In this document: piece by piece, positions 3,214 through 19,420 of the stretch | Numbering within the stretch: position 1 is the stretch's first letter | How the letters are laid out: every line of letters starts with the position of its first letter | IMG/VR virus record: IMGVR_UViG_3300045988_027877 | Span: 1 to 64,000 of that record | Length of the DNA stretch: 64,000 nt | Origin: a virus | Strand: one strand, 5' to 3' | Notes under the pieces: model-generated | Told to the model about the DNA's origin: nothing | Databases searched by the model: none | Seen by the model: only the letters and a program-made list of their open reading frames with translations | Translations under genes and position numbers: made by a program

Positions 3214-3483
3214 ATGATTAAGATAGAAAATAAGTTATTACAGTTAATAGAGAATGCAGTAGATGCAGAATTATCATCTAGAAGTCCATTACTGAAATCT
3301 TACTCTAAAGAAGTAAGTGTATACGTTAGTAAAAACACCTTTAGTAAGATAGTAGAACAGATGGATATTAAGTTTAAAGATGTGTCTACTATGGATTTTA
3401 GGACTACTGGTGGAGTAACGGTATCTATTTATATCGCCAATATTCCTGATGATATGTTTGATATAGGTATATTTAACAGTTGA
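3214..3483 (+). CDS. hypothetical protein
   Basis: 89-aa ORF and the first gene of the plus-strand block; TGA stop overlaps the next start. Confidence 0.5.
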   Translation: MIKIENKLLQLIENAVDAELSSRSPLLKSYSKEVSVYVSKNTFSKIVEQMDIKFKDVSTMDFRTTGGVTVSIYIANIPDDMFDIGIFNS

Positions 3484-3674
3484 TTATGCATAAGATAAAT
3501 AACAATACAGCTTACTCTGGTAAGTATATAGATTATGATAATAAGAAGTATTTCTTAGCACCTGAGAGAAGTACTTTAGGTTGTAGTGGTTGTTCCTTAG
3601 TAGGTAAAGGTAAATGTACTAAGAAAGTAACAGACTACTGTACTCAGGGTTACATATTAGTAGAAGTGAAGTAA
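3480..3674 (+). CDS. small Cys-rich protein (CxxC ... C ... C)
   Basis: 64-aa ORF. C-terminal part is YFLAPERSTLGCSGCSLVGKGKCTKKVTDYCTQGYILVEVK. Paralogous to the next ORF. Confidence 0.5.
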   Translation: MIMHKINNNTAYSGKYIDYDNKKYFLAPERSTLGCSGCSLVGKGKCTKKVTDYCTQGYILVEVK

Positions 3675-3675
3675 T

Positions 3676-3915
3676 ATGTTAGTGAACATTAATACAGAAT
3701 TAGGTATGACGATATACGATCCAGAACTAGCAGAGATAATTAAAGAGCGTACTCCGGTTGATATAGCTGGAACATCTTACTACATAGAACCGGCTAGAGG
3801 AGGTTCTTGTGATGGTTGTGAGTTTAATGGTAAGAAGTGCCCTTAGAGAGCTATTACTTTTTGCACTTCTAATGGTGGAAATATACTGATTAAAGCGGAA
3901 CCACAGAGTAAATAA
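3676..3915 (+). CDS. small Cys-rich protein, paralog of 3480..3674 (one in-frame TAG)
   Basis: Manual translation gives MLVNINTELG...YYIEPARGGSCDGCEFNGKKCP[TAG]RAITFCTSNGGNILIKAEPQSK with TAA stop. The Cys pattern aligns with the upstream paralog only if TAG at 3844-3846 is read through. Confidence 0.5.
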
Positions 3916-3949
3916 TACGTTATAAGGGAATAAACTAAGTTAAAATATT

Positions 3950-4300
3950 ATGGAAGATAAAGTACTAGAAACAGTAGTTGACGGCATTAAGTGGAATATG
4001 TTAAAGGATGTGTTGGTTAAACCACTGCCTGCAATTATGGTTACTAAGGAGTTTACAGAACAAGTACCTAACGGTAAAGTAGATGAAGAAGGATTTAACG
4101 AGTATGATACTAAGACAGAGATAAAAGAGGTAGAATCTGATTGGGCTACTGGTATCGTACTAAAGATTCCTTCACATCTAAAGGATGTTGAGTTCAAAGT
4201 AGGTGATACAGTTGCTTATAATAAGAAATTTGCAATGTATTTTGACCTAGTAAAAGATACTCAGTTAGTGAAACCTTATGATCTTATTGCCGTTAAGTAA
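3950..4300 (+). CDS. putative GroES/gp31-like co-chaperonin
   Basis: 116 aa. LVKPL...GIVLKIP...FKVGDTVAY...YDLIAVK resembles the GroES pattern (GIVL, VKVGD.V, DILAIV). Recognition by eye only. Confidence 0.45.
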   Translation: MEDKVLETVVDGIKWNMLKDVLVKPLPAIMVTKEFTEQVPNGKVDEEGFNEYDTKTEIKEVESDWATGIVLKIPSHLKDVEFKVGDTVAYNKKFAMYFDLVKDTQLVKPYDLIAVK

Positions 4301-4332
4301 TATGTCTATTAAATATGTTTAACATATTGAGA

Positions 4333-4361
4333 GAGCTCGACGAAAGTCGGGCTTTCTTTTT
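4333..4361 (+). terminator. rho-independent terminator
   Basis: agctcgac-gaaa-gtcgggct (8-bp stem including one G-U, GNRA loop) followed by ttcttttta. Confidence 0.6.
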
Positions 4362-4374
4362 ATATATTAATTAA

Positions 4375-4410
4375 TTGTTAACAAATGTTAAAAGCTATTA
4401 ACAATTTTAA
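4375..4410. promoter_or_regulatory. second phased T(G/A)TTAA repeat array
   Basis: TGTTAACAAA (4375), TGTTAAAAGC (4385) and TATTAACAAT (4395) at exact 10-bp phase, plus a degenerate fourth copy. Shares TGTTAACAA with the array at 3028-3090. Confidence 0.45.
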
Positions 4411-4517
4411 CATTCTAGCGTTTATTAGGCATATGGAAAAATTAATAGTTGTGGGTCTCTGCTTTTCCATGATATGGCTTGCCATATGGGGACTCGGTAA
4501 TAAAAATAGAGATTAAT

Positions 4518-4898
4518 ATGAAGTACACTTTTAATAGAGATTTTGGCTTTTTCAAAGCAAACGATAGCCTTACTTGGGATGAAGAACTCGGTGCTTTTAC
4601 TATGGATGTAAAAGACGAGAATGGTTTTAGATCTGCAATGCTTGATGAGAGAACAGCTGAAGACATGTACAGTGAAGGTATTTTGTCAGTTGGTATCGAA
4701 CCAAGAGATAATAAGATTGATAAAACTGTTGAGTTTATTGACACTCTTCTTGATACTTATGCTAAGGACTACGAAGAGATGAAGAAAAAGGCTGATAAAG
4801 GTGAAGTTCAACCGTGTGTTAAGGTTGAAGCTGAAACCGTTTATTATAATCTTACTAAGGTATTAACTAGAATCAAAGACGAATTGACCAATGAATAA
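4518..4898 (+). CDS. hypothetical protein
   Basis: In-frame ATG within track ORF 4479..4898 (MKYTFNRDF...); TAA stop. Confidence 0.5.
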   Translation: MKYTFNRDFGFFKANDSLTWDEELGAFTMDVKDENGFRSAMLDERTAEDMYSEGILSVGIEPRDNKIDKTVEFIDTLLDTYAKDYEEMKKKADKGEVQPCVKVEAETVYYNLTKVLTRIKDELTNE

Positions 4899-5283
4899 AT
4901 TAGTAAAAGCGGTATCTAAATCCGAATTACTAATGGAATTCTTAAAAAGTCTTAATGGTATACTTGACTTAACTAATAGGGAAATGGAGTTGTTAGCCTG
5001 CTTAATAGAGTTAGATGTTAACACTCCTAGACTCCCTAACATTGATAGGAATGTAATATCTACTGAGAATAGAAAGTATGTTAATCGTACTTTAGGCATT
5101 ACTCCGGATAATTTAAGTAGGTACATAGCTAAGTTTAAGGCTTAGGGTATACTACAGAAAGGTAGAGGAGAGAATGAAGTACATGTTAATAAAGCTTTGA
5201 TTCCAGAGATAATCGGAGATAGAGTACAAGTAACAATAATACTAAAAGTAAAGAAAGATGAAGATGAGATCACTGCTAATTGA
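4891..5283 (+). CDS. putative winged-helix DNA-binding regulator (one in-frame TAG)
   Basis: LGITPDNLSRYIAKFKA[TAG]GILQKGRGENEVHVNKALIPE looks like a MarR-type recognition helix plus wing. The wing is encoded only if TAG at 5143-5145 is sense. TGA stop at 5281. Confidence 0.45.
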
Positions 5284-5644
5284 TGCAGGTTCAATCATAC
5301 TTTGGAAAGACTATAACATACTAAACAGATTATGGCACAAATTAAGGGGTAAAGCATTGGCATTCAACAGGTTCTCTGTAGTAGGGCAGAGAACCGAGCT
5401 CCTTACTTCAGATGCACTTACTGATGTTATAGTATATGAACCCATCAAAAAGTATAGTAAATCAGAGAGTAACAAACTAAGATGTATATCATATAATTTA
5501 GCTTCTACTAAGGATTGGAATGAAGTAGTTACTGTGATTAACCTGATTAGACCAAATACTCTAAATATTGACAGTAGTGTTGAGAAATGTAAATACTACA
5601 AGAAAGTTGACTGGAATGAGAAACTAGACGAGTATATATACTAA
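5258..5644 (+). CDS. hypothetical protein
   Basis: 128-aa ORF with TAA stop. Confidence 0.45.
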   Translation: MKMRSLLIDAGSIILWKDYNILNRLWHKLRGKALAFNRFSVVGQRTELLTSDALTDVIVYEPIKKYSKSESNKLRCISYNLASTKDWNEVVTVINLIRPNTLNIDSSVEKCKYYKKVDWNEKLDEYIY

Positions 5645-5822
5645 ATTAAGTAATAAGTATAATATACCATATCAAGTAATAGAAGTAATATGCAACAGTC
5701 CATTTAAGTTCGCGAATCAATCTATAAGTAATTTAGACCCTAAACCCGTCATGTTTGCTTACTTAGGTAAAATAAAGATAAAGAAACGTTATGAAGAAGA
5801 TGCCAAAAGTAGATGCGTATGA
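5616..5822 (+). CDS. hypothetical small protein (one in-frame TAG)
   Basis: Manual translation gives MRN[TAG]TSIYTKLSNKYNIPYQVIEVICNSPFKFANQSISNLDPKPVMFAYLGKIKIKKRYEEDAKSRCV with TGA stop. It fills a gap that otherwise looks empty. Confidence 0.35.
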
Positions 5823-6258
5823 CCCAGTAATATACCCTAGAATGTTGTGGGTAGCTGGACAAGTAGAAGGACTAGATAAGATATTCATCTTTAATAAGAT
5901 GGAAGATACTTCAGAAGAGGATCCAAATGGTTACAAGAGCTTACTCTATGAATCAGAGCATGGAACAGGAGTATTAGTTACAGCTCCGGTTACTAAGAAA
6001 TCTGACAGAACTAAAGGAGCTCTAGTAATAATACTAGATTGGGATGCATTACAAGGTGGAGATGAAGCACACGAGGCTGTACATGCAGCAGATTATATAT
6101 TTGATGAATTAGGCATGTATACACAGTCTTTCGCTAATCACAATGAGCAATACGCTTACTTAGTTGGATGGATAGCTGGTTGCATTAGTAAAACAATAAT
6201 AAAATTAAAACAATATGACACACGAAGAGAGTCTGATGATGTGGAAGATAGAGCTTGA
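5791..6258 (+). CDS. hypothetical protein with HExxH motif (possible metallopeptidase)
   Basis: 155 aa containing GGDEAHEAVHAADYIF (HEAVH). Confidence 0.4.
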   Translation: MKKMPKVDAYDPVIYPRMLWVAGQVEGLDKIFIFNKMEDTSEEDPNGYKSLLYESEHGTGVLVTAPVTKKSDRTKGALVIILDWDALQGGDEAHEAVHAADYIFDELGMYTQSFANHNEQYAYLVGWIAGCISKTIIKLKQYDTRRESDDVEDRA

Positions 6259-6625
6259 CAACTTTAATAAGTTAGGTACAGACAAGGCTTCCAAAGATAT
6301 TAAGAAACTATATGAAGTACTTGATAAGGTAATTACAGCTGGTACTATTACTTACGAGGATTTTACTAAGGATATGATAGATGAATTGACTACTTTAATG
6401 GTTGAGGCTGGTAAAGAGGGAAAAGAGCTCGATAGAGCTACTGAAGTTGATACTATTTGCAAACGTTTAACTGAGAAGTATGAAGCGAAATATAACGAAG
6501 GAGAGTCTGTAGAAGGAGATCCGGAACTTTCAACAGATAATTCACAGATACAGGACGAATCGGGAGTATGTGAACCCGAATGTGCCTCTGAAGAGAGCAG
6601 AGGAGATACTCCAGAGATTGGTTAA
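6215..6625 (+). CDS. hypothetical acidic protein
   Basis: 136-aa ORF; an alternative in-frame ATG is at 6236. Confidence 0.45.
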   Translation: MTHEESLMMWKIELDNFNKLGTDKASKDIKKLYEVLDKVITAGTITYEDFTKDMIDELTTLMVEAGKEGKELDRATEVDTICKRLTEKYEAKYNEGESVEGDPELSTDNSQIQDESGVCEPECASEESRGDTPEIG

Positions 6626-6657
6626 GGAAGATTATTTAGGTTATAGAATATAATAAC

Positions 6658-6984
6658 ATGGAAAAGATAATTATAAGCAAATCAGGTTTTATGGTATTTG
6701 ATACTGAAACCAACGTAGTAAGAAGACCCATTGACCTTTACTTTACTAATAGAGTAGCAAGAGTAGATAAAGGAGGGCAAGTAATCACTGATGATGAAAT
6801 AATTGATGTAGAGCCTAACAGTTATGTGACCGTATTTAATGCATATGACGAAGCAGGGTATACTAGAAGTAAAGTAGTTGTTATTAGTGATCCAGCCACA
6901 GTTCATGATCTAGACGAGTTCTACACTGAAACTAGAGAAGGATTAAAATCTGAAGAATACAAAACATACAATGAAGCTGTTTGA
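6658..6984 (+). CDS. hypothetical protein
   Basis: 108-aa ORF that overlaps the next gene. Confidence 0.45.
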   Translation: MEKIIISKSGFMVFDTETNVVRRPIDLYFTNRVARVDKGGQVITDDEIIDVEPNSYVTVFNAYDEAGYTRSKVVVISDPATVHDLDEFYTETREGLKSEEYKTYNEAV

Positions 6985-7501
6985 TATACTTGGTGGTAAA
7001 GTAATAATTCATTCGGACGCCTTAGGTATCCCATGTTTTAAAAAGATATGGGATGCCGATAAGGCAGACAAAGAGCACGCTACTAAAGTAATCAGTTACA
7101 TAGTATTGAAGAACAAATGGGATAGTCCATATGTACTTAGTATGAACTCTGATTCTATAGAGACTAAGCTCAAAGAAGAATTATTCAATGACGTCAACTA
7201 CAGTCTTACTGATGATGAACTGCTTTGTGAAGAGCAATATAAGCAATTCTGCGATACTAACCTACTTAAGATGTTACGTAATATGCGTCGTAAACTAGAC
7301 AGTTTTAGCGATTACTATGAACAATCTCTAGGTGAGGAACTAGATGAAAAGAAGATCGAGAAGTACTTAGCTGGGTTCGAGAAGGTAAAAGGATCCTATA
7401 TTACTTTAGATTTCTTGGAGAAAGCAGTTAAGACAGAAGAGCTTACAACATCTAAGGTTAAGGGTGATTCTAAGATCAATCCTTATGAGTTGGCAAAATA
7501 A
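6971..7501 (+). CDS. hypothetical protein
   Basis: 176-aa ORF with no TAG. It is the last sizeable gene before the tRNA, endonuclease and terL. A small-terminase role is possible from position only. Confidence 0.45.
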   Translation: MKLFDILGGKVIIHSDALGIPCFKKIWDADKADKEHATKVISYIVLKNKWDSPYVLSMNSDSIETKLKEELFNDVNYSLTDDELLCEEQYKQFCDTNLLKMLRNMRRKLDSFSDYYEQSLGEELDEKKIEKYLAGFEKVKGSYITLDFLEKAVKTEELTTSKVKGDSKINPYELAK

Positions 7502-7561
7502 TACAGTAAAAAATAACCAGAATTAAACAACACGTTATAGGTGTTATAAATAGAACTAAAT

Positions 7562-7699
7562 ATGAAAAAGCAATTGATTATTACAATAGACGCTACGCAG
7601 GGTTCAGAAAAAGCTTGGGCGGATATTAATGAAGCACATGAAGCAATAATGAAGGCGAATAAGCCTTCATTGTGGCAAAGAATTAAATCTTGGTTCTAA
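7562..7699 (+). CDS. hypothetical 45-aa protein
   Basis: Manual translation gives MKKQLIITIDATQGSEKAWADINEAHEAIMKANKPSLWQRIKSWF with TAA stop, followed by hairpin gtccg..cggac. Confidence 0.3.
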   Translation: MKKQLIITIDATQGSEKAWADINEAHEAIMKANKPSLWQRIKSWF

Positions 7700-7749
7700 T
7701 AACCAAAAGGTCCGACGGGGACGGACAATAAGTATTCCCCGGCACATAT

Positions 7750-7826
7750 TGGGGTATAACGTAATTGGCAGCGTCGCCGGCTCTAACCCGGTATGATTTG
7801 TGTGGGTTCGAATCCTACTGCCCCAA
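7750..7826 (+). tRNA. suppressor tRNA, anticodon CUA (reads UAG); acceptor stem resembles tRNA-Gln
   Basis: Hand-folded cloverleaf:
- acceptor tggggta / tgcccca (U1-A72)
- D arm acgt-aattggca-gcgt
- anticodon arm gccgg-CT[CTA]AC-ccggt, anticodon at 7783-7785
- 9-nt variable region
- T arm gtggg-ttcgaat-cctac
- discriminator A, with encoded CCA at 7827-7829. Confidence 0.85.
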
Positions 7827-7843
7827 CCAATTGATTTTTTACT

Positions 7844-8485
7844 ATGTCGTACAGAGATATTGATCCTAAATTAGCAGGTATATATATATTCAAAAATAAT
7901 ATTAACAATAAGTGTTATATAGGACAAGGAGTATCGTTGAGAAAAAGAATAAAACATCATTTTAGTAATATAAAGACTAAACGTTACGATTTACCACTAT
8001 ATAAGGCTATTGAGAAACATGGCATTCATAACTTTACTATAGATATATTAGAATCATTTATTCCTGATACTAGTCTAACCTTAGAGGAATTAATTAAGAA
8101 GTTAGACGATTTAGAAATAAAGTATATCGAGTTATATAAAGCTTATACGGAAGGTTATAACTGTACTAGAGGTGGAGATTATGGAGTTTTAGGGTTGAAG
8201 ATGACTAAAGAACAGAAGCAAAAGATTTCTGAAATATCTAAACAAAGAGCTCAAAATTACTATAAGCCTATCTACTTATACAATATAAAGGATAAATCTA
8301 TTATATATGCAATTAGTGTAACTCATGCCGCTAATATAGTAGGCTTTCATAGATCTTGTATTATAAGATGTGCCAAAGGAGAATATAACGAGACTCATGG
8401 ATATTTAATTGCTTATACAGAAGAGGAATTAAATACAAAAATACACTCTTATAAGAGGAGTAAGTATAATAGTATAAAGAGTTAA
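7844..8485 (+). CDS. GIY-YIG homing endonuclease (free-standing, TAG-free)
   Basis: N-terminal AGIYIFKNNINNKCYIGQGVSLRKRIKHHF is the GIY-YIG motif. 213 aa with no in-frame TAG. The TAA stop lies 2 nt before the terL ATG. Confidence 0.8.
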   Translation: MSYRDIDPKLAGIYIFKNNINNKCYIGQGVSLRKRIKHHFSNIKTKRYDLPLYKAIEKHGIHNFTIDILESFIPDTSLTLEELIKKLDDLEIKYIELYKAYTEGYNCTRGGDYGVLGLKMTKEQKQKISEISKQRAQNYYKPIYLYNIKDKSIIYAISVTHAANIVGFHRSCIIRCAKGEYNETHGYLIAYTEEELNTKIHSYKRSKYNSIKS

Positions 8486-8487
8486 CA

Positions 8488-10539
8488 ATGGTAGATTTCG
8501 AGAAATAGATCAAAAATAGTGACAAGTTTAGAGGCCCAGCGCTATAGTATTTAGCTACTGGGCATTATTGTTAGTACCCTGAAGGAACCTCAGAATTCTT
8601 CGCGTACTGGGATGAATAGATGGATAGAAGTAAGTATGGTTATACTGCTGATGATGGAGACTTTATCAGTGGGTATAACTATTTTTATTTAAACTTCTGT
8701 CCTATTCAGAGAATCATCTATAACACTATTACTAATGCAGATGGTTCTACTACGATAAAGAAAACACGTGATCTACAGTTTCCTGACTTCTATGACTATG
8801 ACTATTACTTCTTCTAGGCAGTAGAACAAGCTGAAACAGAAGGTAAACACTTGTGTGCATTAAAGAGTAGACGTAAAGGTTACTCATATAAGAATGCTGC
8901 TATGGCGTGTCGTAATTACTATCTGTTTGCAGGTAGTAAGACATATATCTATGCTAGTAATAAGCAGTACCTTACTGAGGATGGTATACTTACTAAGGCT
9001 TGGGACTACATGGACTTCATAGACAAGAATACAGCTTGGGGTAAGAAGAGATCTGTAAATACTTAGATGCGTAAACGTGCTGGTTTCTATACTAAGGACG
9101 AGTATGGTAATGAGGTTGAATTAGGCTTTAAATCAGAGATTATTGGTGTTACTTTGAAGGATAATCCAGACGTAGTACGTGGTAAAGCAGGTAAGCTTAT
9201 TATATTCGAAGAAGCTGGTTCTTTCTCTGAATTAGGTGCAGCATGGCAGATTGCTAGACCGTCTGTAGAACAGGACGGTATGGCGTTTGGTACTATGATC
9301 GCATTCGGTACTGGTGGTGATGAAGATAGCCATTTTGAGACTCTTAAAGATATGTTCTATAACCCAGATGGTTACAACTGTCTAGGCTTTGATAACATAT
9401 GGGACGAGACTCCATCTGATAAGAAGTGTGGATTCTTTATACCACAGTATACTAACATGGACTTCCGTGATGATAAAGGTAACCGTCTGTATATGGATGT
9501 AGATGGTAACACATTACGTAAGAAATCCCTAGAGTATATACTAACAGATCGTAGAAAAGTAATAGAGAATGCTACCAACTCTGTAGCAGTAGATAGATAC
9601 GTCGCAGAACACTGTATAACGCCCTAGGAGGCATGTTTGGAGTTCGGAGGTAATATCTTCCCTAAGAAGGAGTTACAAGAGCAATTAGCCAAGATTAGGA
9701 TCAATAAACACCTAAGTAATCATAAGTAGGTAGGTGACTTAGTATGGAATACAGATGGATCCCTCAAATGGGTTATTAAGAAGTTAGGAGATATAACTCA
9801 TTACCCATTGAAGAGAGATGATGACCCAACTGGTTCTATAGTAATATGGGAACACCCAGTACCAGATGCCCCTATAGGTTTATACATACTTGGGGTAGAC
9901 CCATATGACCACGACTAGTCAGGTACTAATTCATTAGGCTCTACATTCGTTTATAAGCGATTCTAGAGCTTTGAGAATTATTATGATATAATAGTCGCTG
10001 AATACACTGGAAGGCCTTAGACGGCAGAAGAATACTACGAGAACCTGCGTAAACTAGCAATATACTACAATGGTAGGATAATGTATGAGAATGAGCGTAA
10101 AGGTCTATTCCCATACTTCACAGCTAAGCATTGTGACTACTTACTTGCTGATCAACCAGATATTATATCAGATATAGTTGGTAATTCCAAAGTATAGAGA
10201 AAGAAGGGTTGTCACATGAATAAACAGATTAAGCAATGGGGTGAAGGCTTAATCAAAGACTGGTTAAATGAAGAACAAGCACCCGGTAAGAAGAACTTAC
10301 ACAACATACTATCAGAGCCGCTATTAGAAGAACTTATAAGCTATAATGACACAGGAAACTTCGATAGGGTCATGGCGTTGATGCAAGTAATGATCTATAG
10401 AGAACAGCTCTATAATCTCAAGGTTAAAGAAAAGAAAAAAGAGAATAAGAATAGGGTGCTGTTTGAAGGACCTATCTTTACTCAAGCGTGGTTTCATGAC
10501 GATGAAGTCACAGATAATTTAGAAGCATATATGTTTTAA
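8488..10539 (+). CDS. terL: terminase large subunit (12 in-frame TAG)
   Basis: Track fragments 8620, 8851, 9067 and 10216 share a frame with ATG 8488. I traced 8488-10539 and found only TAG interruptions. Motifs: FYLNFCPI, ALKSRRKGYS (Walker-A-like), LIIFEEAG (Walker B), GVDPYDHD (nuclease). TAA stop. Confidence 0.85.
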
Positions 10540-10541
10540 CT

Positions 10542-13046
10542 ATGAAGAATATTAATCAGTTCCCTATTTAGAAGTTACCCATGTCTAAGAAGACTCAAGC
10601 TTGGAGAGAGTCTTGTGTAGACTACATAGTAGGAAAGAGTATGGGTGGCTCTAGAAATGGTAATAACAGAACTCGCAAGGAAGAGATGTAGACATACTAT
10701 GATCTGTATAATAGTATATACAATGAGAAGGATCTAAAGTATGTTACAAACCCATTCAAGCAAGAAGATGGATTCCCTGCAATGGCTTAGGATTATAATA
10801 TAATCAAGCCTAAAATTGACCTATTACTTGGTGAGGAGACTAAGAGACCGTTTAACTTTAAAGTGGTACGTACTAGTGATATAGCTACCAGCGAAATGCA
10901 AGACAAAGCTAAGTAGATGCTAATAGACTATATACAGGCTAGTATCATGAGTAAGTTAGGACCAGAAGAACAAGCTAGATATCAGCAAGCTTTACAGTCT
11001 GGTGAGATTATGCCTCCTGAACAGATACAGAAATACATGAGTAAAGACTATAAAGATATAGCAGAGATTACTGCTTACCATAGTCTTAACTACTTGAAGA
11101 ACAAGTTGAACATTACTCATGAGTTCTATAAAGGTTGGAAAGATGCATTAATAGGTGGTGAAGAGATATACTATGTTGGTATACAGAATGGCAATCCGTG
11201 CCTTGAACGCATCAATCCTCTTTACTTTGATTATGATACTGATACATCTGATCTAGAGTTCATTCATGATGCACAATGGTGCGTATATGAGATGAAACTA
11301 TCAGCTACAGATATCTATGATAGATACTATGACAAACTGTCTGAGAAGTAGTTAAATCAGCTGTTAGACATGATGGAAGATAGTGCTAAAGGTGGTATTA
11401 ACCCTGAAGTAAGAAAGACGTCTATGGACTTCCCACACTTCAAGATGCATAATATTAACGGTTTCACTACTAACCCATTTGATTCATCTAGCAGTATAAG
11501 TGTATGGCACTGTTGCTGGCAGTCATTCAGAAAGATAGCATTCGTAACTATAGCTGACCCTGAAACAGGGGAACCAGTAGAATATATTGTAGACGAGTCA
11601 TACAATGAGACTGGTATGGAAGTTAGTGTAGAATGGAAATGGATTATTGAAACATGGGAAGGATATAGAGCAGGTGAAAACTTATACTTTGGTATAGAAC
11701 CTCTTGAATATCAACATGTATCAGCTGATAATCCTAATGCACAAAGACTCCCTTATACTGGTGTAGTATATAATAATACTAACAGTAGACCTAGATCATT
11801 AGTAAGTATGATGAAACCATTACAGTATATGTATATTGTACTGTGGTATAGATTAGAGTTAGCAATGGCTAGAGATAAGGGTAAAGTAGTAAATATGGAT
11901 ATTACTTAGATACCTAAGTCTATGAATATTGATGTTGCTAAGTGGATGCATTACCTGTCTGCACTAGGAGTTAACTTTATTAACCCTTATGAAGAAGGTT
12001 GGGATATACCTGGTAGAGAAGGTGGAAAACCATCATAGTTCAACCAAATTACAGCTTTAGACCTTACTATGGCTAATACTATAGATCAATACATCAAGTT
12101 GATGGATAAGATTGAATCTATGTTAGCTGAGATTACTGGTGTATCTAAACAGAGAGAAGGAGCTATTTCATCTAATGAATTAGTAGGTAATGTAGAGAGA
12201 TCTGTGATACAGTCTGCTCATATTACTGAACCATGGTTCTGGACTCATAACCAAGTAAAGAGAGAGACATTAGTAATGTTACTCAATACTGCTAGATACG
12301 CTTGGAAGGATACTAAGACATCATTACAGTATGTATTTGATGATGCAACTAGAGCATTCATAACACTGTCAGATCAGTTGTTCTATGAGGATCTAGACGT
12401 ATTCGTAGAAGATACTACTAAGAATCAACAGAACCTCGAAGCATTGAAGAATTTAATGCAGCCAGCTATGTAGAATGGAGCTAGCCTGCTTGATATAGCT
12501 GAGATTATTACTTTGGATAATGTCAATATGATCAAGAATAGATTAGAAGAAATCGAGCAGAAACGTATGGAACAACAGCAGGCTATGGAACAAGCTCAAG
12601 CTGAACGTGAACAGCAAATGGCTCAAATGGAAAATGAAGTTAGAGAAGAAGAGTTGATGATAGAAGAAGCTAAGCTCGATCTTGAGAAGTATAAGATTGA
12701 TGCTGATAATGCTACAAAGATTACGGTAGCTCAGCTTAATGCTTATAGAGGTACAGAGGATATGGATCAGAATGATAATGGTATTCCAGATACTATGGAA
12801 ATAGCAGCACAAGCATTAGAAGAGAGAAAACAGATGTCAGACGAAGCTTCTAAACAACTTGATATTAGAGCTAAGATGAGAGAACAGGATCTTAAGAGAG
12901 ATATCGAGAATAAGAAGATAGAACTCGAAAAACAGAAGTTACAAGCTCAGAAGGATATTCAGAAGCAAAAGGACCAAGCCGCTTTGGAAAGAGAGAGAAT
13001 TAAAGCTAGAACGGCATTGAAGAATAAAGTAGCAGGAGAGAAGTAA
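10542..13046 (+). CDS. portal protein (8 in-frame TAG) with Gln/Glu-rich coiled-coil C-terminus
   Basis: Fragments 10917, 11370, 12069 and 12513 share the frame of ATG 10542; the gaps were traced and contain only TAG. About 834 aa, placed directly after terL. TAA stop. Confidence 0.75.
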
Positions 13047-13426
13047 TGAAGGTAATACAGAATAAACTAATACCATTTAAGGGTTACTCATACATTAACC
13101 TGTTTGGTTTGATATTTACTAGAGATAAAAGTAAAATATCAGCTAAGTCCTACAACCATGAGAAGATTCATCTCAAGTAGATGTAGGAGATGTTATGGAT
13201 ACCATTCTATCTATGGTATGGCATTGAATACATTCTTATAAGATTATGCAGACTATTTTCTAAACAAAGTACTGTTTACCACGATGTATCTTTTGAAGAA
13301 GAAGCATATAATAACCAAGATGATTACACGTATCCTGAAACTAGAAAGCATTACTCTTGGTTGAAGTATCTTAAAATTGGTAGCTTTAAGGAAAGATGGA
13401 CAGAAACGCGTTTAAACAAAGGATGA
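13046..13426 (+). CDS. hypothetical membrane-associated protein (two in-frame TAG)
   Basis: MKVIQNKLIPFKGYSY...NHEKIHLK[TAG]M[TAG]EMLWIPFYLWYG... The ATG overlaps the portal stop; TGA stop. Confidence 0.5.
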
Positions 13427-14652
13427 AAGCATTTAAGACTTATCGGGAGTAGAATCCCGGTAAGACTTATTTTGACTTCAAAGCCTATGCAGATGGAGGA
13501 GAAATACCACCATCTAACAAGCCTGTAATACCTGAAGAGCCTCAACCATATAAGGGTAAATTATATAAGGATAGATATGGTCGTAAGTATACTGAAAGTC
13601 AGTTGGATGATTATTATGACAATAGTACTGATGAAATTGATAGATTCACTGGGAAACCATTCGTCAGAGGATTGAAGCCTGTAGGTGATATTGAAGATGC
13701 TGCTAACATGACTCCAGTTGGAGATGCAATATCAGCATATGATATATACAGTTCTATTAAGTAGTCAGACTGGGAAGGTGCTGGATTAGCTGCAATGGGG
13801 TTGATACCGTTTATGCCTACCGGTGGTAATAAACTGTTCAGAAGATCTGCAACTAAACCAAAGAGTACTTATATCCCTAAAGTAGATCCTAATTATAAGT
13901 AGAAAGTAATTAGTAAAGCCCTTAATGAACAAGAGGCTTACAGCACCATGCCTTAGAGCGTTGTAGAGGAGATTACGGATCAGCGTAACAGAAGTTATGA
14001 GTTGATGCAAGAACCTTACGCTAGAAAGAGGGCAAAACAAGTTGATGAACAATACGGTACAGATTATCTTAAAGTGTACGATAGTATGCTAGATAAGTAC
14101 GTAGACATCAACGAATATTTCAAACTTCCAGAACCACAGTATAAATAGATGGAAAGACCAACTATAGCTGCTCAGGTAACTCCAGCTAAGGGTACTACCA
14201 TGTATTTTAATAGAGATATAATAAAGACTCCTGAAGATATTCCTAATAGTGTAGTACTTCATGAAATGGGTCACTTGGTTGACGGTGCAGCTGGAATGAA
14301 TAATGAATTCTTAAAGAAGCTTGGAGATAAGAGTAAGTTTATACCTTTTAATCAAGCCAAGACGATGTATCCGAATATGACAAGAGAAATGTATAATAAC
14401 ATATTACAGGGTACTGAAATCAAGAGTTACATGAATCAGTTTAGAAGCTATCTGCAAGAGAAGGGTAAACTGAATAAGGGAAATTATACGGGAAGCTATA
14501 AGAATCTTAGACAAGACTTATTAGAAGCTCCTAGAGAAAGCTTTAACAACATTAAAGCAATCTTTAATCTCTATAGAAGTCCTAAGTTGTTTAACGAGGA
14601 CTTTAATATGATTCCTGTAGTTAGTACTGACTCAAATCGCGATATGGTATGA
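13396..14652 (+). CDS. putative virion zinc metalloprotease (HEMGH), 5 in-frame TAG
   Basis: Frame traced from ATG 13396 into track ORF 14149..14652. Contains VVLHEMGHLVDGAAG (HExxH). TGA stop in an ATGA overlap. Confidence 0.55.
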
Positions 14653-15032
14653 AAACAATATCTAAGGCTAATAATTACTTAGAAACTGATTTCTTGAAGT
14701 ACGCGAGAGCAATCCTAACTCAGGAAGACTATGTAAATAAGTTCAAAAATGGTGGTACTTATGATCTTATCCTAGATGACGAGTCTATGGAGCAAATAAG
14801 AAAAGAAGAAAATAAACCTCTATTTAATCCAAAAAGACATTCCGAATACTCTCCAGAACTATCAGAAATAGAAGTGCGCTCTTTAGAAGACCCCGACTTA
14901 TTTACTAAAGAAGAATTAGTTGAGATTCTAAACACAGTAATACTTAAATATATAAATTGGGAGGACCTATCAAATGAGCGACCTGATAGACACAGCACTG
15001 ATACTACCTCAGTATCCGATACCTAGTTATAA
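14649..15032 (+). CDS. hypothetical protein
   Basis: Track ORF 14649..15026 ends at TAG and continues for one more sense codon before a TAA stop at 15030-15032. Confidence 0.45.
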
Positions 15033-15207
15033 GGATGGTGGTATACATATCAAAAAGAAAAACAGAGGTAAGTTCAATGCTTTAAAAAAGAGAACAGGTA
15101 AGAGTACCGAAGAACTTACTCATAGTAAGAATCCATTGACACGCAAACGTGCTATCTTTGCACAGAATGCTAAGAAATGGAAACACAAAGGAAGAAAGAA
15201 AAAATAA
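14974..15207 (+). CDS. small highly basic protein
   Basis: 77 aa, Lys/Arg rich. GGGAGG lies 8 nt upstream of the ATG. Overlaps the previous ORF in another frame. Confidence 0.45.
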   Translation: MSDLIDTALILPQYPIPSYKDGGIHIKKKNRGKFNALKKRTGKSTEELTHSKNPLTRKRAIFAQNAKKWKHKGRKKK

Positions 15208-15224
15208 TCTAATTATATATAATT

Positions 15225-16388
15225 ATGGACGAAATTACATTAAACGGTTTTGAAGTATTTGAAGACTTCCTGCCAGGAGCTAATGTACCTAAGAAAGAAA
15301 CACAGCCCGCTGGCAATGATGATAACAATGAAGATATCCTAGATGGTGTAGGTGAATCAATGACAGACGAGGAGCTGGAAGCATTGCGTAATCCTAAGAA
15401 AGAAGAGGATACAAAGGATGATAAACAGGAAGAAGTAGTTGAAGAACCTGTTAAAGAGCCTAAAAAAGAAAGTAAGAAAGAGGATAAGAAACCAGAATCT
15501 GAAGAAGAGATCGAAGAAGAAGTAGTTGAAGAACCTACTAATGAACCAGATAGTAATGCAGTAAGTGCATTCTTTGGTGTAATGGCAGAGAAATTCGGAT
15601 GGGAAATGGGTGACGATGATGAAGTACCTAGTACACCTGAAGAGTTGGTAGACTATTTCCAAGCAGTAATTGAAGAGAATTCAGTACCACAGTATGCTAG
15701 TGAAGAAGTAGAAGCACTGGATAATTTCGTAAAGAATGGCGGTAACTTGAGAGATTACTTTGAGATTGATGGTGAACTTGATCTAGAAGACTTTAGCATT
15801 GAAGACAATGAAGTAAACCAGAAGATCATACTTAAAGAGTTCCTTAAAGAAAAAGGTTATAGTAATAAGCAGATTGATAAGAAACTTACTAAGTATGAAG
15901 ATGCTGGATTACTTGAAGATGAAGCAGAAGATGCTTTAGAAGCTCTGAAAGAGATCAGAGAGAATAAGAAACAACAGCTATTGAAAGATCAAGAAAACCA
16001 AGCTAAGGAAGCTGCTAGACGTCAACAGGAGTATTTTAATAGCGTTGTCAACGAAATAAAAGGTATGCAAGATATACGCGGTATCAAAATTCCGGAAAAG
16101 GATAAGAAACAACTGTTAGAGTATATCTTTAAACCCGACGCTGATGGTAAGACACAGTACCAGAAAGACTGGTCCAAGAGCGTAAAGAATTTACTCGAGT
16201 CTGCTTACTTTACAATGAAAGGCGATACACTACTTAAAGCTGCAAAGAACGAAGGTTCTAGTGACGCTATCAGTAAGTTCAAAAATAGTTTGAATAAAAC
16301 TGGAGTAAGTAGAAAGACGAAGAAAACGGACAACACTAGCGATATAGATATGTGGAAGTCTTTTGCGCAGCAGTTGCGTGTAAATTAA
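15225..16388 (+). CDS. putative scaffolding protein (acidic, coiled-coil, TAG-free)
   Basis: 387 aa with a very Glu/Lys-rich N-terminal half. Lies immediately upstream of the capsid gene. No TAG; TAA stop. Confidence 0.5.
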   Translation: MDEITLNGFEVFEDFLPGANVPKKETQPAGNDDNNEDILDGVGESMTDEELEALRNPKKEEDTKDDKQEEVVEEPVKEPKKESKKEDKKPESEEEIEEEVVEEPTNEPDSNAVSAFFGVMAEKFGWEMGDDDEVPSTPEELVDYFQAVIEENSVPQYASEEVEALDNFVKNGGNLRDYFEIDGELDLEDFSIEDNEVNQKIILKEFLKEKGYSNKQIDKKLTKYEDAGLLEDEAEDALEALKEIRENKKQQLLKDQENQAKEAARRQQEYFNSVVNEIKGMQDIRGIKIPEKDKKQLLEYIFKPDADGKTQYQKDWSKSVKNLLESAYFTMKGDTLLKAAKNEGSSDAISKFKNSLNKTGVSRKTKKTDNTSDIDMWKSFAQQLRVN

Positions 16389-16423
16389 TAATAAACTAAA
16401 TAAATTAAAATTACTAGTATTTT

Positions 16424-17893
16424 ATGGATAATAATATTCTAAATAACTTAGTTTTATACAAAGGTAAATGGTTTTCAGACTTGATTGACACTGCCAAAAT
16501 CAGTGCAGCTTCGCAATAGAACCCATATCAGGTTGCTACCGTATTGTCTTATGTATTCGGAACTAAGGATAGCGGTTACAACACTTCCTTGGATATGTTG
16601 ACAGGTGGTCTTGGTAACGTTATGACGATTGACCAACCGAGCTGGGAGTGGAGTGTAATGATTGATGCTGATAGAGCAGTTACAATTAGAGATGCAAAAT
16701 GGAATGGTGATGCTATTACTTCTGATTCTACTCCGGGTCTGGGTAATACTCCTATCCAATTGTGGCTTGAAGATAACTGGTTCGGTCCTACAGCTATCTT
16801 GGAATTCGACGATAAAGAATACCAAGTACGTGTAGCTGGTGCTCCTTACCAAGATGGTAACCTTTGGGTTTACACTTGCTTCGTAGCAGACGGACAACCT
16901 TCATCTTATATCCCTGCTGACTTGCTGACTCCGGGTAGCCAAGTATCACGTCTTGCTTCTGCTGTAGAAGAATACAGTGAAGAAGGTGATATCCTGAACT
17001 ATAATACTCATTTCAAAATGCGTAATTATCTGACGACAATTCGTATTAACTATGATATTACTGGTTCAGCTTATTCTACAGTTATGGCTATCGCCCTGAA
17101 AGATCCTAAAACAGGTAAATCTTCTTACTTGTGGGCAGACTATCAGGAATGGGTTGCTATGCGTGAGTGGTATAAGAGATGTGAAAGAATGTTGGTTTAC
17201 ATGAAAAACAATGTAAACAAAGATGGTTCTTGTAACCTGAAAGGTACTAACGGTCGTCCAGTATTTATTGGTGCTGGTTTGCTGGAACAAATTGCTCCAT
17301 CAAATAGACGTTATTACACTGAATTGACAGCAGAACTGTTGGAAGATTTCTTGTTCGATCTTTCTTACAATGTACTGGGTACTAACGAACGTAAGTTTGT
17401 TGGTTTGACTGGTGAAATGGGTATGAGAGAATTCGACAGAATCTTGAAAGAAAAAGTTGTTAACATGAACTTGATTGATACAGTATTCGTAACTGGTTCT
17501 GGTGATAACTTGACTTTCGGTGGTCAATTCAAGACTTACAAGATGACCAATGGAATCGAATTGACTCTGAAATATTTCCCACTTTATGATGACTTGACTT
17601 ACAATCGTAAGTTACATCCGGTTACTAAGAAACCTCTGGAATCTTATCGTATAACATTCCTGGATCTTGGTAGACGTGATGGTGAAGCTAACATCGTAAA
17701 AGTAGTTCGTAAAGGTCGTGAGTTCGTAACTTGGTATACTGGTGGTGCTGTTGCTCCGTCTGGTTATGCTAATTCTAAGAATACTCTGAGATCTAATGGT
17801 AAGGACGGTTATACCGTATACTTCCTTGGTGAAATGGGTATTATGTTGAGAGATCCAAGAGCTTGCGGTGAACTTATCATGGAGGCAGAGTAA
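16424..17893 (+). CDS. major capsid protein (one in-frame TAG)
   Basis: ATG 16424 is in frame with track ORF 16544..17893 through TAG 16517-16519. About 489 aa. Codon usage is visibly different (more ctg, ggt, cgt), and a strong terminator follows. Confidence 0.7.
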
Positions 17894-17916
17894 GAGTTAA
17901 TCTCTCTGTGAACAAA

Positions 17917-19418: not shown

Positions 19419-19420
19419 TT

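What the first reader, a model, noticed from the sequence alone, without database searches (positions are those of the whole stretch)
7750..7829. Amber-suppressor tRNA(CUA) with a tRNA-Gln-like acceptor stem at the early/late boundary
Seen directly: a 77-nt cloverleaf with anticodon loop CU-CUA-AC and an encoded CCA. Its 5' arm UGGGGUA with a U1-A72 pair matches what I recall of bacterial tRNA-Gln acceptor stems, which supports Gln insertion; this is inference.

Odd features are a 9-nt variable region and discriminator A.

It sits after the last small early-type gene and just before the endonuclease, terL and the heavily recoded late genes. That position would fit timed expression of the decoder.
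Basis: partly seen in the sequence, partly recalled or inferred. Interest (0 to 1): 0.75.

Follow-up and report, generated by a model that had tools for sequence, protein, structure and literature searches.

The report
Phage amber-suppressor glutamine tRNA, already known
This is a real gene for a transfer RNA that lets a gut crAss-like phage read the stop codon TAG as glutamine. The same gene is already annotated in a reference genome and the phenomenon is published, so the only fresh point is that it travels with a selfish homing-endonuclease gene as a swappable cassette.

Summary
ARAGORN and Rfam both call a tRNA with anticodon CUA at 7750-7829 (+). It has a U1-A72 pair, discriminator A73, a 9-nt variable loop and an encoded CCA.

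The window is a crAss-like phage (Crassvirales, Suoliviridae, Buchavirus). An identical tRNA is annotated as tRNA-Gln in RefSeq NC_055892.1.

- **Gln decoding:** relatives' sense codons aligned to window TAGs are 47% CAA/CAG.
- **Gln-type body:** an anticodon-blind scan for its 5' signature hit only tRNA-Gln (130/130), mostly from Bacteroidales.
- **A73:** this is typical of host tRNA-Gln, not odd. The real departures are the 9-nt variable loop and A10-U25.
- **Position:** the tRNA sits where heavy TAG use starts. In cr109_1, TAG makes up 31% of Gln codons downstream and 1-2% in the replication blocks.
- **Timing:** timed expression cannot be tested here, and 2 of the 10 upstream "early" genes contain TAG.

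All of this is published (Yutin 2021, Borges 2021, Peters 2022).

One point I did not find described: tRNA plus GIY-YIG endonuclease (7750-8487) forms a laterally moving cassette in a hypervariable slot upstream of TerL. The cassette is 99.9% identical to cr109_1, against 87% for TerL.

The parts
7750..7829 (+). Amber-suppressor tRNA(CUA) with a tRNA-Gln-type body (7750-7826) and an encoded CCA (7827-7829). Anticodon CTA lies at 7783-7785.
   Evidence: ARAGORN. Rfam RF00005 at 50.7 bits. Cloverleaf as the MFE fold. Identical to the gene annotated tRNA-Gln in NC_055892.1. Compensatory changes across alleles.
7793..7801 (+). 9-nt variable loop AUGAUUUGU. This is the unusual structural feature of this allele family.
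   Evidence: The 130 cellular tRNA-Gln found are 71-72 nt long without CCA, i.e. they have short variable loops. Relatives T22 and T17 have 6 nt and T5 has 7 nt.
7844..8485 (+). Free-standing GIY-YIG homing endonuclease (213 aa, no in-frame TAG), starting 14 nt after the tRNA.
   Evidence: Pfam PF01541, E = 8.9e-9. RefSeq annotates the ortholog as 'homing endonuclease'. An ortholog follows the tRNA in all 14 loci of this tRNA family and in none of the other 48.
7750..8487 (+). Swappable tRNA + endonuclease cassette, filling the slot between the last small ORF and the TerL start codon.
   Evidence: Homology to 95-99% identical relatives that carry other tRNA alleles stops at 7763-7790 and resumes at 8487-8491. 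The cassette is 99.9% identical to cr109_1, against 87.3% for TerL and 74.9% for the upstream flank.
7710..7726 (+). Conserved hairpin (GUCCG-ACGGGGA-CGGAC) between the upstream ORF and the tRNA. It belongs to the backbone, not to the cassette.
   Evidence: In L007 the stem differs (CGACG...CGUCG) but still pairs. Function unknown; it looks like a terminator only when read on the minus strand.
7835..7840 (+). T run (TTTTTT) a few bases after the tRNA 3' end, conserved in all copies of this allele.
   Evidence: 3' flanks of the 9 related copies and the window. Its role, terminator or the AT-rich leader of the endonuclease gene, is not tested.
3214..7699 (+). Block of small, mostly orphan genes upstream of the tRNA that use TAG rarely. 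In the 10 genes at 3214-7501 there are 2 TAGs against 20 CAA/CAG. A further 44-codon ORF ends at 7699.
   Evidence: The equivalent block in cr109_1 has 3 TAGs in 12 genes.
8488..64000 (+). Client genes: a TAG-recoded block running from TerL (12 TAGs) and portal (8) through a 2646-aa protein (38 TAGs) to the window end. It holds 193 in-frame TAGs in 32 of 41 genes, and no gene ends in TAG.
   Evidence: Functional names come from the RefSeq relatives.

Best explanation
The gene encodes a functional amber-suppressor tRNA derived from tRNA-Gln. It is the only tRNA of this crAss-like (Buchavirus) phage.

**Proposed mechanism.**
1. The tRNA is transcribed in the same direction as its neighbours and cut out of a longer transcript. 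This step is inferred.
2. The host Bacteroidales glutaminyl-tRNA synthetase charges it with glutamine. This step is inferred from the U1-A72, G2-C71 and G3-C70 pairs, the host-type A73, U35, and the published finding that Bacteroidetes have GlnRS but no GatCAB.
3. The charged tRNA pairs with UAG and competes with release factor 1. The roughly 190 in-frame TAGs in the window's packaging, structural, lysis and large virion-protein genes are then read as Gln. That TAG stands for Gln is shown here by comparative codon analysis.

The replication modules hardly use TAG, and no gene ends in TAG. Full-length late proteins therefore depend on this tRNA. Whether that dependence works as a timer is a published hypothesis that was not tested here.

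The tRNA is physically coupled to a GIY-YIG homing endonuclease. The coupling is shown. It most likely spreads between related phages as a tRNA + endonuclease cassette by homing or gene conversion into a slot directly upstream of TerL. The homing mechanism is inferred.
For: **It is a tRNA with anticodon CUA.** The cloverleaf is under structural selection: 15 of 19 pairs show compensatory changes across alleles.

**TAG is recoded.** Reading through TAG lengthens the longest stop-free stretch from 648 to 2653 codons. TerL has 12 in-frame TAGs and portal has 8. All 82 related loci have 5-15 TAGs in TerL.

**TAG = Gln.**
- Of 1424 sense codons in relatives aligned to window TAGs, 669 (47%) are Gln, split CAA 393 and CAG 276. 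The next most frequent residues are Lys 128 and Glu 118.
- At conserved sites (portal codons 10, 50, 83, 270, 456, 644; TerL 414, 493) CAA/CAG are the only alternatives.
- In the reverse direction, 725 of 1403 are Gln.

**The body is Gln-type.** An anticodon-agnostic genome scan returned 130/130 tRNA-Gln, mostly from Bacteroidales, with U1-A72. A73 occurs in 109 of the 130.

**Existing annotation and literature.**
- An identical gene is annotated tRNA-Gln in NC_055892.1.
- Suppressor tRNAs and TAG-to-Gln recoding in late genes of crAss-like phages are published (PMC7886860).
- The timing model and charging by host GlnRS have been proposed.
- Proteomics shows TAG = Q in crAss-like phages (PMC9523058).
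- Bacteroidetes have GlnRS and lack GatCAB (PMC3927822).

**Position at the code boundary.** In cr109_1, TAG is 31% of Gln codons from TerL onward, 10% in the small upstream genes and 1-2% in the minus-strand blocks. None of the 94 genes ends in TAG.

**Cassette.** The evidence is sharp homology breakpoints, perfect tRNA-endonuclease linkage (14/14 against 0/48), and cassette identity of 99.9-100% where TerL is only 76-87% identical.
Against: - No expression, aminoacylation or proteomic data exist for this phage, so charging with Gln is inferred.
- Two E. coli GlnRS identity positions are not met: A10-U25 instead of G10, and C38 instead of U38. G36 is necessarily A. E. coli rules may not transfer to Bacteroidales.
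- The 9-nt variable loop is absent from all 130 cellular tRNA-Gln I recovered.
- The closest cellular tRNA-Gln is only 75% identical, so this is not a recent host capture.
- Nine related TAG-recoded loci show no tRNA(CUA) within 10 kb upstream of TerL, even with relaxed ARAGORN settings. Either the tRNA is placed elsewhere in those genomes or recoding can be served in another way.
- Near-identical phages carry a class-II-like 91-nt tRNA(CUA) in the same slot. Its amino-acid identity is unclear.
- Homing is inferred from population patterns. No cleavage site is known.
Confidence: 0.85

Rival explanations
1. The tRNA(CUA) inserts an amino acid other than glutamine: pyrrolysine as ARAGORN's label suggests, or Tyr, Leu, Ser, Lys, Glu or Trp as in classical amber suppressors.
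For: ARAGORN prints 'tRNA-Pyl' for any CUA anticodon. A10 and the long variable loop depart from cellular tRNA-Gln. Sister phages carry a class-II-like tRNA(CUA) that keeps A73, the discriminator base of bacterial Leu and Tyr tRNAs as far as I recall.
Against: Codon alignment gives Gln at 47%, against at most 9% for any other residue. CAA, which is two mutations from TAG, is more frequent than CAG. Tyr accounts for only 16 of 1424. The 5' signature is exclusive to tRNA-Gln in cellular genomes. The annotated relative contains nothing resembling a Pyl system.
Confidence: 0.03
2. The tRNA is not needed for decoding the phage's own genes. It is a passenger of the homing endonuclease or a decaying relic, and TAG read-through is provided by something else, such as a host suppressor, another phage factor or loss of RF1 activity.
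For: Nine TAG-recoded relatives have no detectable tRNA(CUA) in the 10 kb upstream of TerL. Published surveys detect suppressor tRNAs in only about 40% of TAG-recoded phages. The tRNA allele is exchanged freely.
Against: With relaxed ARAGORN settings, 68 of 82 loci carry a tRNA(CUA) in the flanks searched, including 6 non-canonical ones. Some of the remaining loci are truncated. Every allele keeps U33-CUA-A37 and a compensated cloverleaf. The window allele is 100% conserved across backbones that are 75-98% identical in TerL protein. It is the only tRNA in the genome.
Confidence: 0.04
3. The main role is sabotage of the host rather than decoding. The suppressor causes read-through of host genes that end in TAG, including defence genes. 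Phage TAG codons are a secondary consequence.
For: This is proposed in the literature (PMC7886860; PMC12386605). Some Zeta crAss-like phages keep a CUA suppressor without any recoding. The whole genome here avoids TAG as a stop codon, as expected if read-through is strong.
Against: This phage has about 190 in-frame TAGs in the window's essential late genes, so decoding is at least an obligatory function. The two roles are not mutually exclusive. No data on host effects exist.
Confidence: 0.1
4. There is no temporal switch. The tRNA is simply co-transcribed as the first element of the late operon or made throughout infection, and its position upstream of TerL reflects the endonuclease's insertion slot rather than regulation.
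For: The slot is defined by cassette borders at the tRNA 5' end and the TerL start codon. Alleles with or without endonucleases, and sometimes with a tRNA-Met, occupy the same slot. No sigma-70-like site stands out and no Bacteroidetes TAnnTTTG motif is present near the tRNA. Two of the ten upstream 'early' genes need the suppressor themselves.
Against: TAG use is strongly partitioned by module. The major capsid gene keeps one conserved TAG at codon 32 (46 of 56 relatives), which would gate its synthesis. The published timing model and proteomic hints support staged use.
Confidence: 0.35

Closest known systems
tRNA-Gln KNV50_gt01 of uncultured phage cr109_1 (RefSeq NC_055892.1, Buchavirus splanchnicus), with the orthologous slot in cr52_1 (NC_055888.1)
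   Same: The 80-nt sequence is identical. It has the same position (small ORF, then tRNA, GIY-YIG endonuclease and TerL) and the same endonuclease at 100% amino-acid identity.
   Different: The backbone differs: TerL is 87% identical at the nucleotide level and the upstream flank 75%. The window's closest backbone, cr52_1 (94.7%), carries a different 76-nt tRNA(CUA) and no endonuclease.
Suppressor tRNAs of TAG-to-Gln (code 15) crAss-like phages (Yutin et al. 2021, PMC7886860; Borges et al. 2021, bioRxiv 10.1101/2021.08.26.457843; Peters et al. 2022, PMC9523058)
   Same: A phage-encoded tRNA(CUA) in a phage of a standard-code Bacteroidales host. Recoding is concentrated in structural and lysis genes, while replication genes use the standard code. 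Charging by host GlnRS is assumed.
   Different: I found no difference in kind. In the passages I read, those papers do not describe the allele diversity of the slot upstream of TerL or its linkage to homing endonucleases.
Bacteroidales chromosomal tRNA-Gln(CUG/UUG)
   Same: U1-A72, G2-C71, G3-C70, A73, U8, an AAU-GG D loop and a GGUUCGAAUCC T loop. A Prevotella sp. copy has the same UGGGGUA 5' strand.
   Different: The anticodon is CUA rather than CUG or UUG. Position 37 is A where the Bacteroidales CUG species have G. Position 10 pairs as A10-U25 rather than G10-C25. The variable loop is 9 nt rather than short. Overall identity is only 64-75%.
E. coli supE (glnV44) amber-suppressor tRNA-Gln(CUA) (from my own knowledge, not tested here)
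   Same: A tRNA-Gln body with a CUA anticodon that GlnRS still charges, inserting Gln at UAG. The 5' acceptor strand is UGGGGUA with U1-A72.
   Different: supE is a point mutant of a cellular gene, has G73 and G10, and is a weak suppressor. blastn of the window tRNA against 5,426 E. coli genomes found no match.
Phage T4 SegB, a GIY-YIG homing endonuclease inside the T4 tRNA gene cluster (PMC2330249)
   Same: A free-standing GIY-YIG endonuclease gene lies next to phage tRNA genes. In T4 it causes preferential inheritance of the tRNA region in mixed infections. Here the tRNA + endonuclease unit shows the population signature expected of such transfer.
   Different: No cleavage or co-infection data exist here. 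The cargo is a single code-changing suppressor rather than ordinary tRNAs. Sequence similarity to SegB was not examined.

Membership tests
tRNA (Rfam RF00005) | Cloverleaf scoring above the family's gathering threshold, with a 7-nt anticodon loop (U33, purine 37) and a T loop GUUCGAAUC | tested here: met
   50.7 bits against a gathering score of 29. ARAGORN. MFE cloverleaf. 15 of 19 pairs compensated across alleles.
Amber-suppressor tRNA | Anticodon CUA at positions 34-36 | tested here: met
   CUA is invariant in all 22 aligned alleles.
Amber-suppressor tRNA | In-frame UAG codons in genes of the same genome that need read-through | tested here: met
   193 in-frame TAGs in 32 of 41 downstream genes. 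TerL has 12 and portal 8. ORFs lengthen under TAG read-through.
Bacterial / Bacteroidota tRNA-Gln | U1-A72 first pair with G2-C71 and G3-C70 | tested here: met
   Read from the sequence. The U1-A72 pair is readable in 126 of the 130 cellular tRNA-Gln recovered and could not be parsed in the other 4.
Bacterial / Bacteroidota tRNA-Gln | Discriminator base as in host tRNA-Gln | tested here: met
   The window has A73. A73 occurs in 109 of 130 cellular tRNA-Gln; the representatives whose record titles I read were Bacteroides, Phocaeicola, Alistipes, Prevotella, Paraprevotella, Tannerellaceae and Chitinophaga. G73 occurs mainly in non-Bacteroidota records such as Planctomycetes and Anaerolineaceae.
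Bacterial / Bacteroidota tRNA-Gln | 5' half (acceptor strand, U8, D stem, AAU) specific to the Gln isoacceptor family | tested here: met
   An anticodon-agnostic pattern scan of the GTDB species genomes gave 130 of 130 matching tRNAs as tRNA-Gln (CUG 118, UUG 12).
Bacterial / Bacteroidota tRNA-Gln | G10 (an E. coli GlnRS identity element; all cellular hits have G10-C25 or A10... see evidence) | tested here: not met
   The window has A10-U25. The common Bacteroidales sequences have G10 in the D stem GUGU/ACAC. This lowers confidence in efficient GlnRS recognition but does not exclude it.
Bacterial / Bacteroidota tRNA-Gln | Short (class I, 4-5 nt) variable loop | tested here: not met
   The window has 9 nt. 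Cellular tRNA-Gln are 71-72 nt long without CCA. Only the endonuclease-linked allele family has 6-9 nt.
Bacterial / Bacteroidota tRNA-Gln | Aminoacylation with glutamine by GlnRS | not testable with these tools
   This is inferred. Bacteroidetes possess GlnRS and lack GatCAB (PMC3927822). Testing it needs an in-vitro charging assay or acylated-tRNA sequencing.
Genetic code 15 (TAG = Gln) phage | TAG positions correspond to Gln in homologs | tested here: met
   669 of 1424 (47%) are CAA/CAG, and 725 of 1403 in the reverse direction. Conserved sites alternate only between TAG, CAA and CAG.
Genetic code 15 (TAG = Gln) phage | TAG not used as a terminator | tested here: met
   0 of 51 complete genes in the window (TAA 33, TGA 18) and 0 of 94 in cr109_1 end in TAG.
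Genetic code 15 (TAG = Gln) phage | Peptide evidence of Gln at TAG | not testable with these tools
   This has been shown for two other crAss-like phages (PMC9523058), not for this lineage.
Free-standing homing-endonuclease cassette (Seg-like) | Endonuclease of a homing family encoded outside an intron or intein | tested here: met
   GIY-YIG domain, E = 8.9e-9. The longer ortholog in L046 also has NUMOD1. RefSeq annotates it as 'homing endonuclease'.
Free-standing homing-endonuclease cassette (Seg-like) | Presence/absence polymorphism with sharp borders among close relatives, and cassette identity higher than flank identity | tested here: met
   Borders lie at 7763-7790 and 8487-8491. Window against cr109_1: cassette 99.9%, TerL 87.3%, upstream flank 74.9%. 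L017 against L069: cassette 100%, TerL 77.9%.
Free-standing homing-endonuclease cassette (Seg-like) | Site-specific cleavage of the endonuclease-less allele and biased inheritance in co-infection | not testable with these tools
   Needs biochemistry or mixed infections. T4 SegB is the precedent (PMC2330249).

The most novel reading that the evidence does not exclude
The position directly upstream of TerL in Buchavirus-like crAss phages is a hypervariable 'decoder slot'. In it, many unrelated-looking tRNA(CUA) alleles replace one another among phages that are otherwise 95-99% identical. I counted at least 25 alleles, including class-II-like 91-nt forms and forms with non-canonical T loops.

At least two allele lineages spread because they are coupled to their own homing endonuclease. 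The window's long-variable-loop family is coupled to a GIY-YIG enzyme, and the 91-nt family to an HNH_3 enzyme. The element that rewrites the genetic code would then be selfish mobile DNA.

A further speculative step concerns the odd 6-9-nt variable loop. It may mark the allele as immune to its own endonuclease, or as resistant to a tRNA-targeting nuclease, rather than serving decoding.
Probability: 0.45. Interest if true: 0.55.

Novelty: already known. Interest (0 to 1): 0.3.

Why it matters
As stated, the finding is a correct rediscovery. Suppressor tRNA(CUA) genes that turn TAG into glutamine for the late genes of crAss-like phages are published. This exact gene is already annotated as tRNA-Gln in RefSeq.

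Three practical points follow.
- **Annotation.** Gene calling on this window must use code 15 from about 8.5 kb onward.
- **Identity elements.** The 'odd' discriminator A is simply the Bacteroidota norm. This supports charging by the host GlnRS and a Bacteroidales host.
- **Mobility.** The decoder is not a stable part of the backbone. It is exchanged as a cassette together with a homing endonuclease.

If homing really drives that exchange, it offers a mechanism for how code-changing tRNAs spread and diversify among gut phages. It would also help explain why suppressor detection is so patchy in surveys, since some alleles are missed at default tRNA-finder settings.

Tried and rejected
- **E. 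coli comparison.** blastn of the tRNA against all complete E. coli genomes found no match. The resemblance to E. coli tRNA-Gln therefore rests on the acceptor stem only and on memory.
- **Pattern format.** The reverse-complement form worked.
- **Small upstream genes.** PHROGs on the ten genes gave one family of unknown function, so 'early' could not be supported by annotation.
- **Promoters and terminators.** The sigma-70 scan gave 11 promoter-like sites against 7.9 expected. The only plus-strand 'terminator' was the tRNA's own anticodon arm. There is no TAnnTTTG (Bacteroidetes -7) motif in 6900-8600. The sequence therefore carries no evidence on transcription timing.
- **Window-only statistics.** The Fisher test of TAG use upstream against downstream was not significant (p = 0.13). 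Only the whole-genome comparison in cr109_1 shows the partition clearly.
- **Fold energy.** The z-score is uninformative (-0.59), which in my experience is common for tRNAs.
- **Pyrrolysine label.** Rejected as a naming convention of ARAGORN, and contradicted by the codon alignment.
- **Recent host capture.** Rejected, because the best cellular identity is 75%.
- **91-nt alleles.** I considered that they are Ser, Tyr or Leu tRNAs. They do not resemble the Bacteroidota Ser and Tyr tRNAs or the phage Leu tRNAs at hand. Their identity remains open.
- **DGR repeat search.** A search with a 40-nt minimum found nothing. A local alignment was needed.
Full report

Yes. ARAGORN finds one tRNA in the whole window, at 7750-7829 on the plus strand, with anticodon CTA at position 34. 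The 'Pyl' label is only ARAGORN's convention for a CUA anticodon. Rfam's tRNA model matches 7750-7826 over its full length at 50.7 bits (gathering score 29, E = 6.5e-8). The minimum-free-energy fold of the 80 nt is the cloverleaf with a 9-nt variable loop.

Reading the sequence gives these features:
- Acceptor stem UGGGGUA/UGCCCCA, with U1-A72.
- D stem ACGU/GCGU, so A10-U25.
- Anticodon loop CU-CUA-AC.
- Variable loop AUGAUUUGU.
- T arm GUGGG-UUCGAAU-CCUAC.
- Discriminator A73 and an encoded CCA.

**2. What is the surrounding genome?**

The window (34.5% G+C) is a crAss-like phage. A 6-kb stretch around the tRNA is 94.7% identical to RefSeq NC_055888.1 (cr52_1) and 87% identical to NC_055892.1 (cr109_1). 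Both are Crassvirales, Suoliviridae, Loutivirinae, Buchavirus.

In those records a 'tRNA-Gln' is annotated directly upstream of the large terminase gene. The cr109_1 gene is identical to the window tRNA.

Gene 7844-8485 is a GIY-YIG homing endonuclease (Pfam E = 8.9e-9). Gene 8488-10539 is TerL and 10542-13046 is portal.

Reading through TAG raises the longest stop-free stretch from 648 to 2653 codons. From TerL to the window end there are 193 in-frame TAGs in 32 of 41 genes, and no gene ends in TAG.

**3. Which amino acid does TAG stand for?**

To avoid circularity with annotators' choice of code, I fetched 80 related loci around TerL from IMG/VR. I then compared codons at the DNA level.

- Of 1424 sense codons in relatives aligned to window TAGs, 669 (47%) are Gln, split CAA 393 and CAG 276. 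The next residues are Lys 128, Glu 118 and Asn 107. Tyr has only 16.
- CAA is two mutations from TAG yet outnumbers CAG, so mutational proximity alone does not explain the pattern.
- At conserved sites (portal codons 10, 50, 83, 270, 456, 644; TerL 414, 493) the only alternatives to TAG are CAA and CAG.
- In the reverse direction, window residues opposite relatives' TAGs are Gln in 725 of 1403 cases.

TAG = Gln is therefore well supported. It agrees with published proteomics on other crAss-like phages (PMC9523058).

**4. Is the tRNA body Gln-like?**

I scanned one genome per GTDB species for the 5' 16 nt plus the T loop, using a degenerate pattern with no constraint on the anticodon.

Every one of the 130 tRNAs that begin with the signature is tRNA-Gln (CUG 118, UUG 12). 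Most come from Bacteroides, Phocaeicola, Alistipes, Prevotella and Paraprevotella.

The U1-A72 pair is readable in 126 of the 130 and could not be parsed in the other 4. 109 of the 130 have A73. G73 occurs mainly in non-Bacteroidota records such as Planctomycetes, Anaerolineaceae and Actinopolyspora. A Prevotella sp. tRNA-Gln(CUG) has the same UGGGGUA strand and A73.

The true departures are these:
- A10-U25, where the host sequences have G10.
- A37 and C38 in the anticodon loop.
- The 9-nt variable loop, where cellular tRNA-Gln are 71-72 nt long without CCA.

The best overall identity to a cellular tRNA-Gln is 75%, and E. coli gives no blastn match. This is an old, diverged phage lineage of tRNA-Gln, not a recent capture.

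Bacteroidetes have GlnRS and a discriminating GluRS and lack GatCAB (PMC3927822). Direct charging by the host GlnRS is therefore the expected route. This step is inferred, not shown.

**5. Position and the timing idea.**

In cr109_1, which carries the identical tRNA and endonuclease, TAG use as a share of Gln codons partitions by module:

| Block in cr109_1 | TAG share of Gln codons | Detail |
|---|---|---|
| Plus-strand block from TerL onward | 31% | 297 TAGs, 36 of 43 genes |
| Twelve small plus-strand genes upstream of the tRNA | 10% | 3 TAGs |
| Two minus-strand blocks (DNA polymerase, primase, helicase) | 1-2% | |

None of the 94 genes ends in TAG.

In the window the ten small upstream genes have 2 TAGs against 20 CAA/CAG. 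The downstream genes have 193 against 578. The direction is as expected, but the difference is not significant on its own (p = 0.13).

The tRNA does sit where heavy recoding begins. However, the 'early' nature of the upstream genes is unproven, because two of them need the suppressor themselves.

I found no promoter evidence next to the tRNA. A conserved hairpin (7710-7726) precedes it and a conserved T run follows it.

The timer model is published and cannot be tested with sequence alone.

**6. What I did not find in the literature: a mobile tRNA + endonuclease cassette in a hypervariable slot.**

Of the 82 related loci, 62 have a tRNA(CUA) upstream of TerL at default ARAGORN settings. These fall into 24 distinct sequences. 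Relaxed settings add a 25th, non-canonical allele in six more loci. All 82 loci are TAG-recoded, and their TAGs align to Gln whatever allele they carry.

Across the alleles, U33-CUA and A73 are invariant, A37 is nearly so, and the stems covary.

Relatives that are 95-99% identical in both flanks carry entirely different alleles. Homology stops at the tRNA 5' end (7763-7790) and resumes at the TerL start codon (8487-8491).

The window's endonuclease has an ortholog (58-100% amino-acid identity) starting 14-23 nt after the tRNA in all 14 loci of this tRNA family. That family comprises:
- all 9 loci with the window allele;
- all 5 loci with its nearest variants, which share UGGGG-type acceptor stems and 6-9-nt variable loops.

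No other allele has this ortholog adjacent (14/14 against 0/48).

The cassette is 99.9% identical between the window and cr109_1, although TerL is 87% and the upstream flank 75% identical. It is 100% identical between L017 and L069, where TerL is 78% identical.

The 91-nt class-II-like alleles are followed by an HNH_3 endonuclease instead (Pfam E = 2.2e-7).

This is the population signature of homing or gene conversion. The published analog is T4 SegB, a GIY-YIG endonuclease inside the T4 tRNA cluster that drives preferential inheritance of that region (PMC2330249). Searches for papers combining suppressor tRNA, homing endonuclease and crAss found no description of this linkage. Cleavage and biased inheritance remain untested.

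**7. Verdict.**

The finding is real and correctly interpreted, but it is already known. The identical gene is annotated in RefSeq. The mechanism, the late-gene bias and the timing hypothesis are all published.

Interest as stated is low to moderate.

The most novel reading that remains open is that the code-changing tRNA is cargo of selfish endonucleases in a rapidly turning-over slot, with the unusual variable loop possibly linked to that lifestyle.

The identity of the 91-nt alleles, and of the decoder in relatives without a detectable tRNA(CUA), is unexplained.

Noticed in passing
window 43829-46354: A diversity-generating retroelement. The tail-protein gene 43829-45070 has a variable repeat at about 44960-45060. 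A template repeat lies at about 45105-45205, and 31 of 47 mismatches are template-A to any base. An Rfam RT-17 RNA lies at 45247-45335 (40.8 bits, gathering score 40.4). A reverse transcriptase lies at 45329-46354 (Pfam RVT_1, E = 9e-17) and itself contains 4 in-frame TAGs. cr109_1 has no RT at this place.
   Followed up: partly
L004 5044-5134, L039 9131-9221, L050 9406-9496, L079 8977-9067: 91-nt tRNA(CUA) alleles with a long variable arm (class-II architecture) occupy the same slot in phages that are 97-99% identical in the flanks. L079 keeps U1-A72 and A73, while the others have C1-G72. They are followed by an HNH_3 endonuclease. Their TAGs still align to Gln. It is unknown which synthetase charges them.
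   Followed up: partly
L015 1336-1414, L018 8817-8895, L022 3631-3709, L026 9363-9441, L030 9363-9441, L041 9147-9225: A 79-nt tRNA(CUA) with a non-canonical D loop and T loop (no GTTCGA). It is missed by ARAGORN at default settings and found only with a relaxed threshold. This is a concrete example of suppressors that escape detection, which may explain part of the gap reported in surveys.
   Followed up: partly
L051, L052, L053, L056, L057, L063, L071, L072, L075 (upstream of TerL): TAG-recoded relatives (6-10 TAGs in TerL) with no tRNA(CUA) detectable upstream of TerL, even at relaxed settings. The searched flank is 10 kb in four of these loci and about 4.9-9.3 kb in the other five. The decoder may lie elsewhere in the genome or be unrecognisable.
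   Followed up: no
20 related loci, e.g. L013 9912-9985; L006 2139-2218: A tRNA-Met(CAT) often lies between the tRNA(CUA) and TerL, ending 15 nt before TerL in many loci. The window lacks it. In L006 the corresponding gene has extra bases in the anticodon loop, which could be an intron or a decaying copy.
   Followed up: no
window 16424-17893 (major capsid protein), codon 32: The capsid gene has a single in-frame TAG near its N-terminus. It is conserved as TAG in 46 of 56 aligned relatives, and the rest have CAG or CAA. A lone early TAG in the most abundant late protein would make its synthesis depend on the suppressor.
   Followed up: no
window 46972-47691: This is the most TAG-dense ORF in the window (12 TAGs in 239 codons). 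By synteny it lies where cr109_1 has its holin and 'lysis regulatory protein-like' genes. That is in line with the published bias of lysis and spanin genes towards TAG. An M15 peptidase (38597-39091, Pfam E = 4.5e-22) has 3 TAGs.
   Followed up: no
window 7710-7726 and L007 about 4915-4938: A hairpin just upstream of the tRNA is kept through different stem sequences (GUCCG/CGGAC against CGACG/CGUCG). A GGGG loop and a downstream CCCC are also conserved. It looks like an intrinsic terminator only on the minus strand, where no gene is nearby.
   Followed up: no
window 7827-7829 compared with L007, L008, L017, L069: The encoded CCA is not conserved. Four loci with the same tRNA body have ...CCCCAACTG instead of ...CCCCAACCA, so the host CCA-adding enzyme must be able to complete the tRNA.
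   Followed up: yes
cr109_1 (L203/L204): 16919-17653, 22330-22929, 52303-52971, 53888-54604: At least four more homing-endonuclease genes, several of them GIY-YIG, are scattered through the late block of the relative. Most contain in-frame TAGs (5, 0, 2 and 6). The one next to the tRNA has none.
   Followed up: partly
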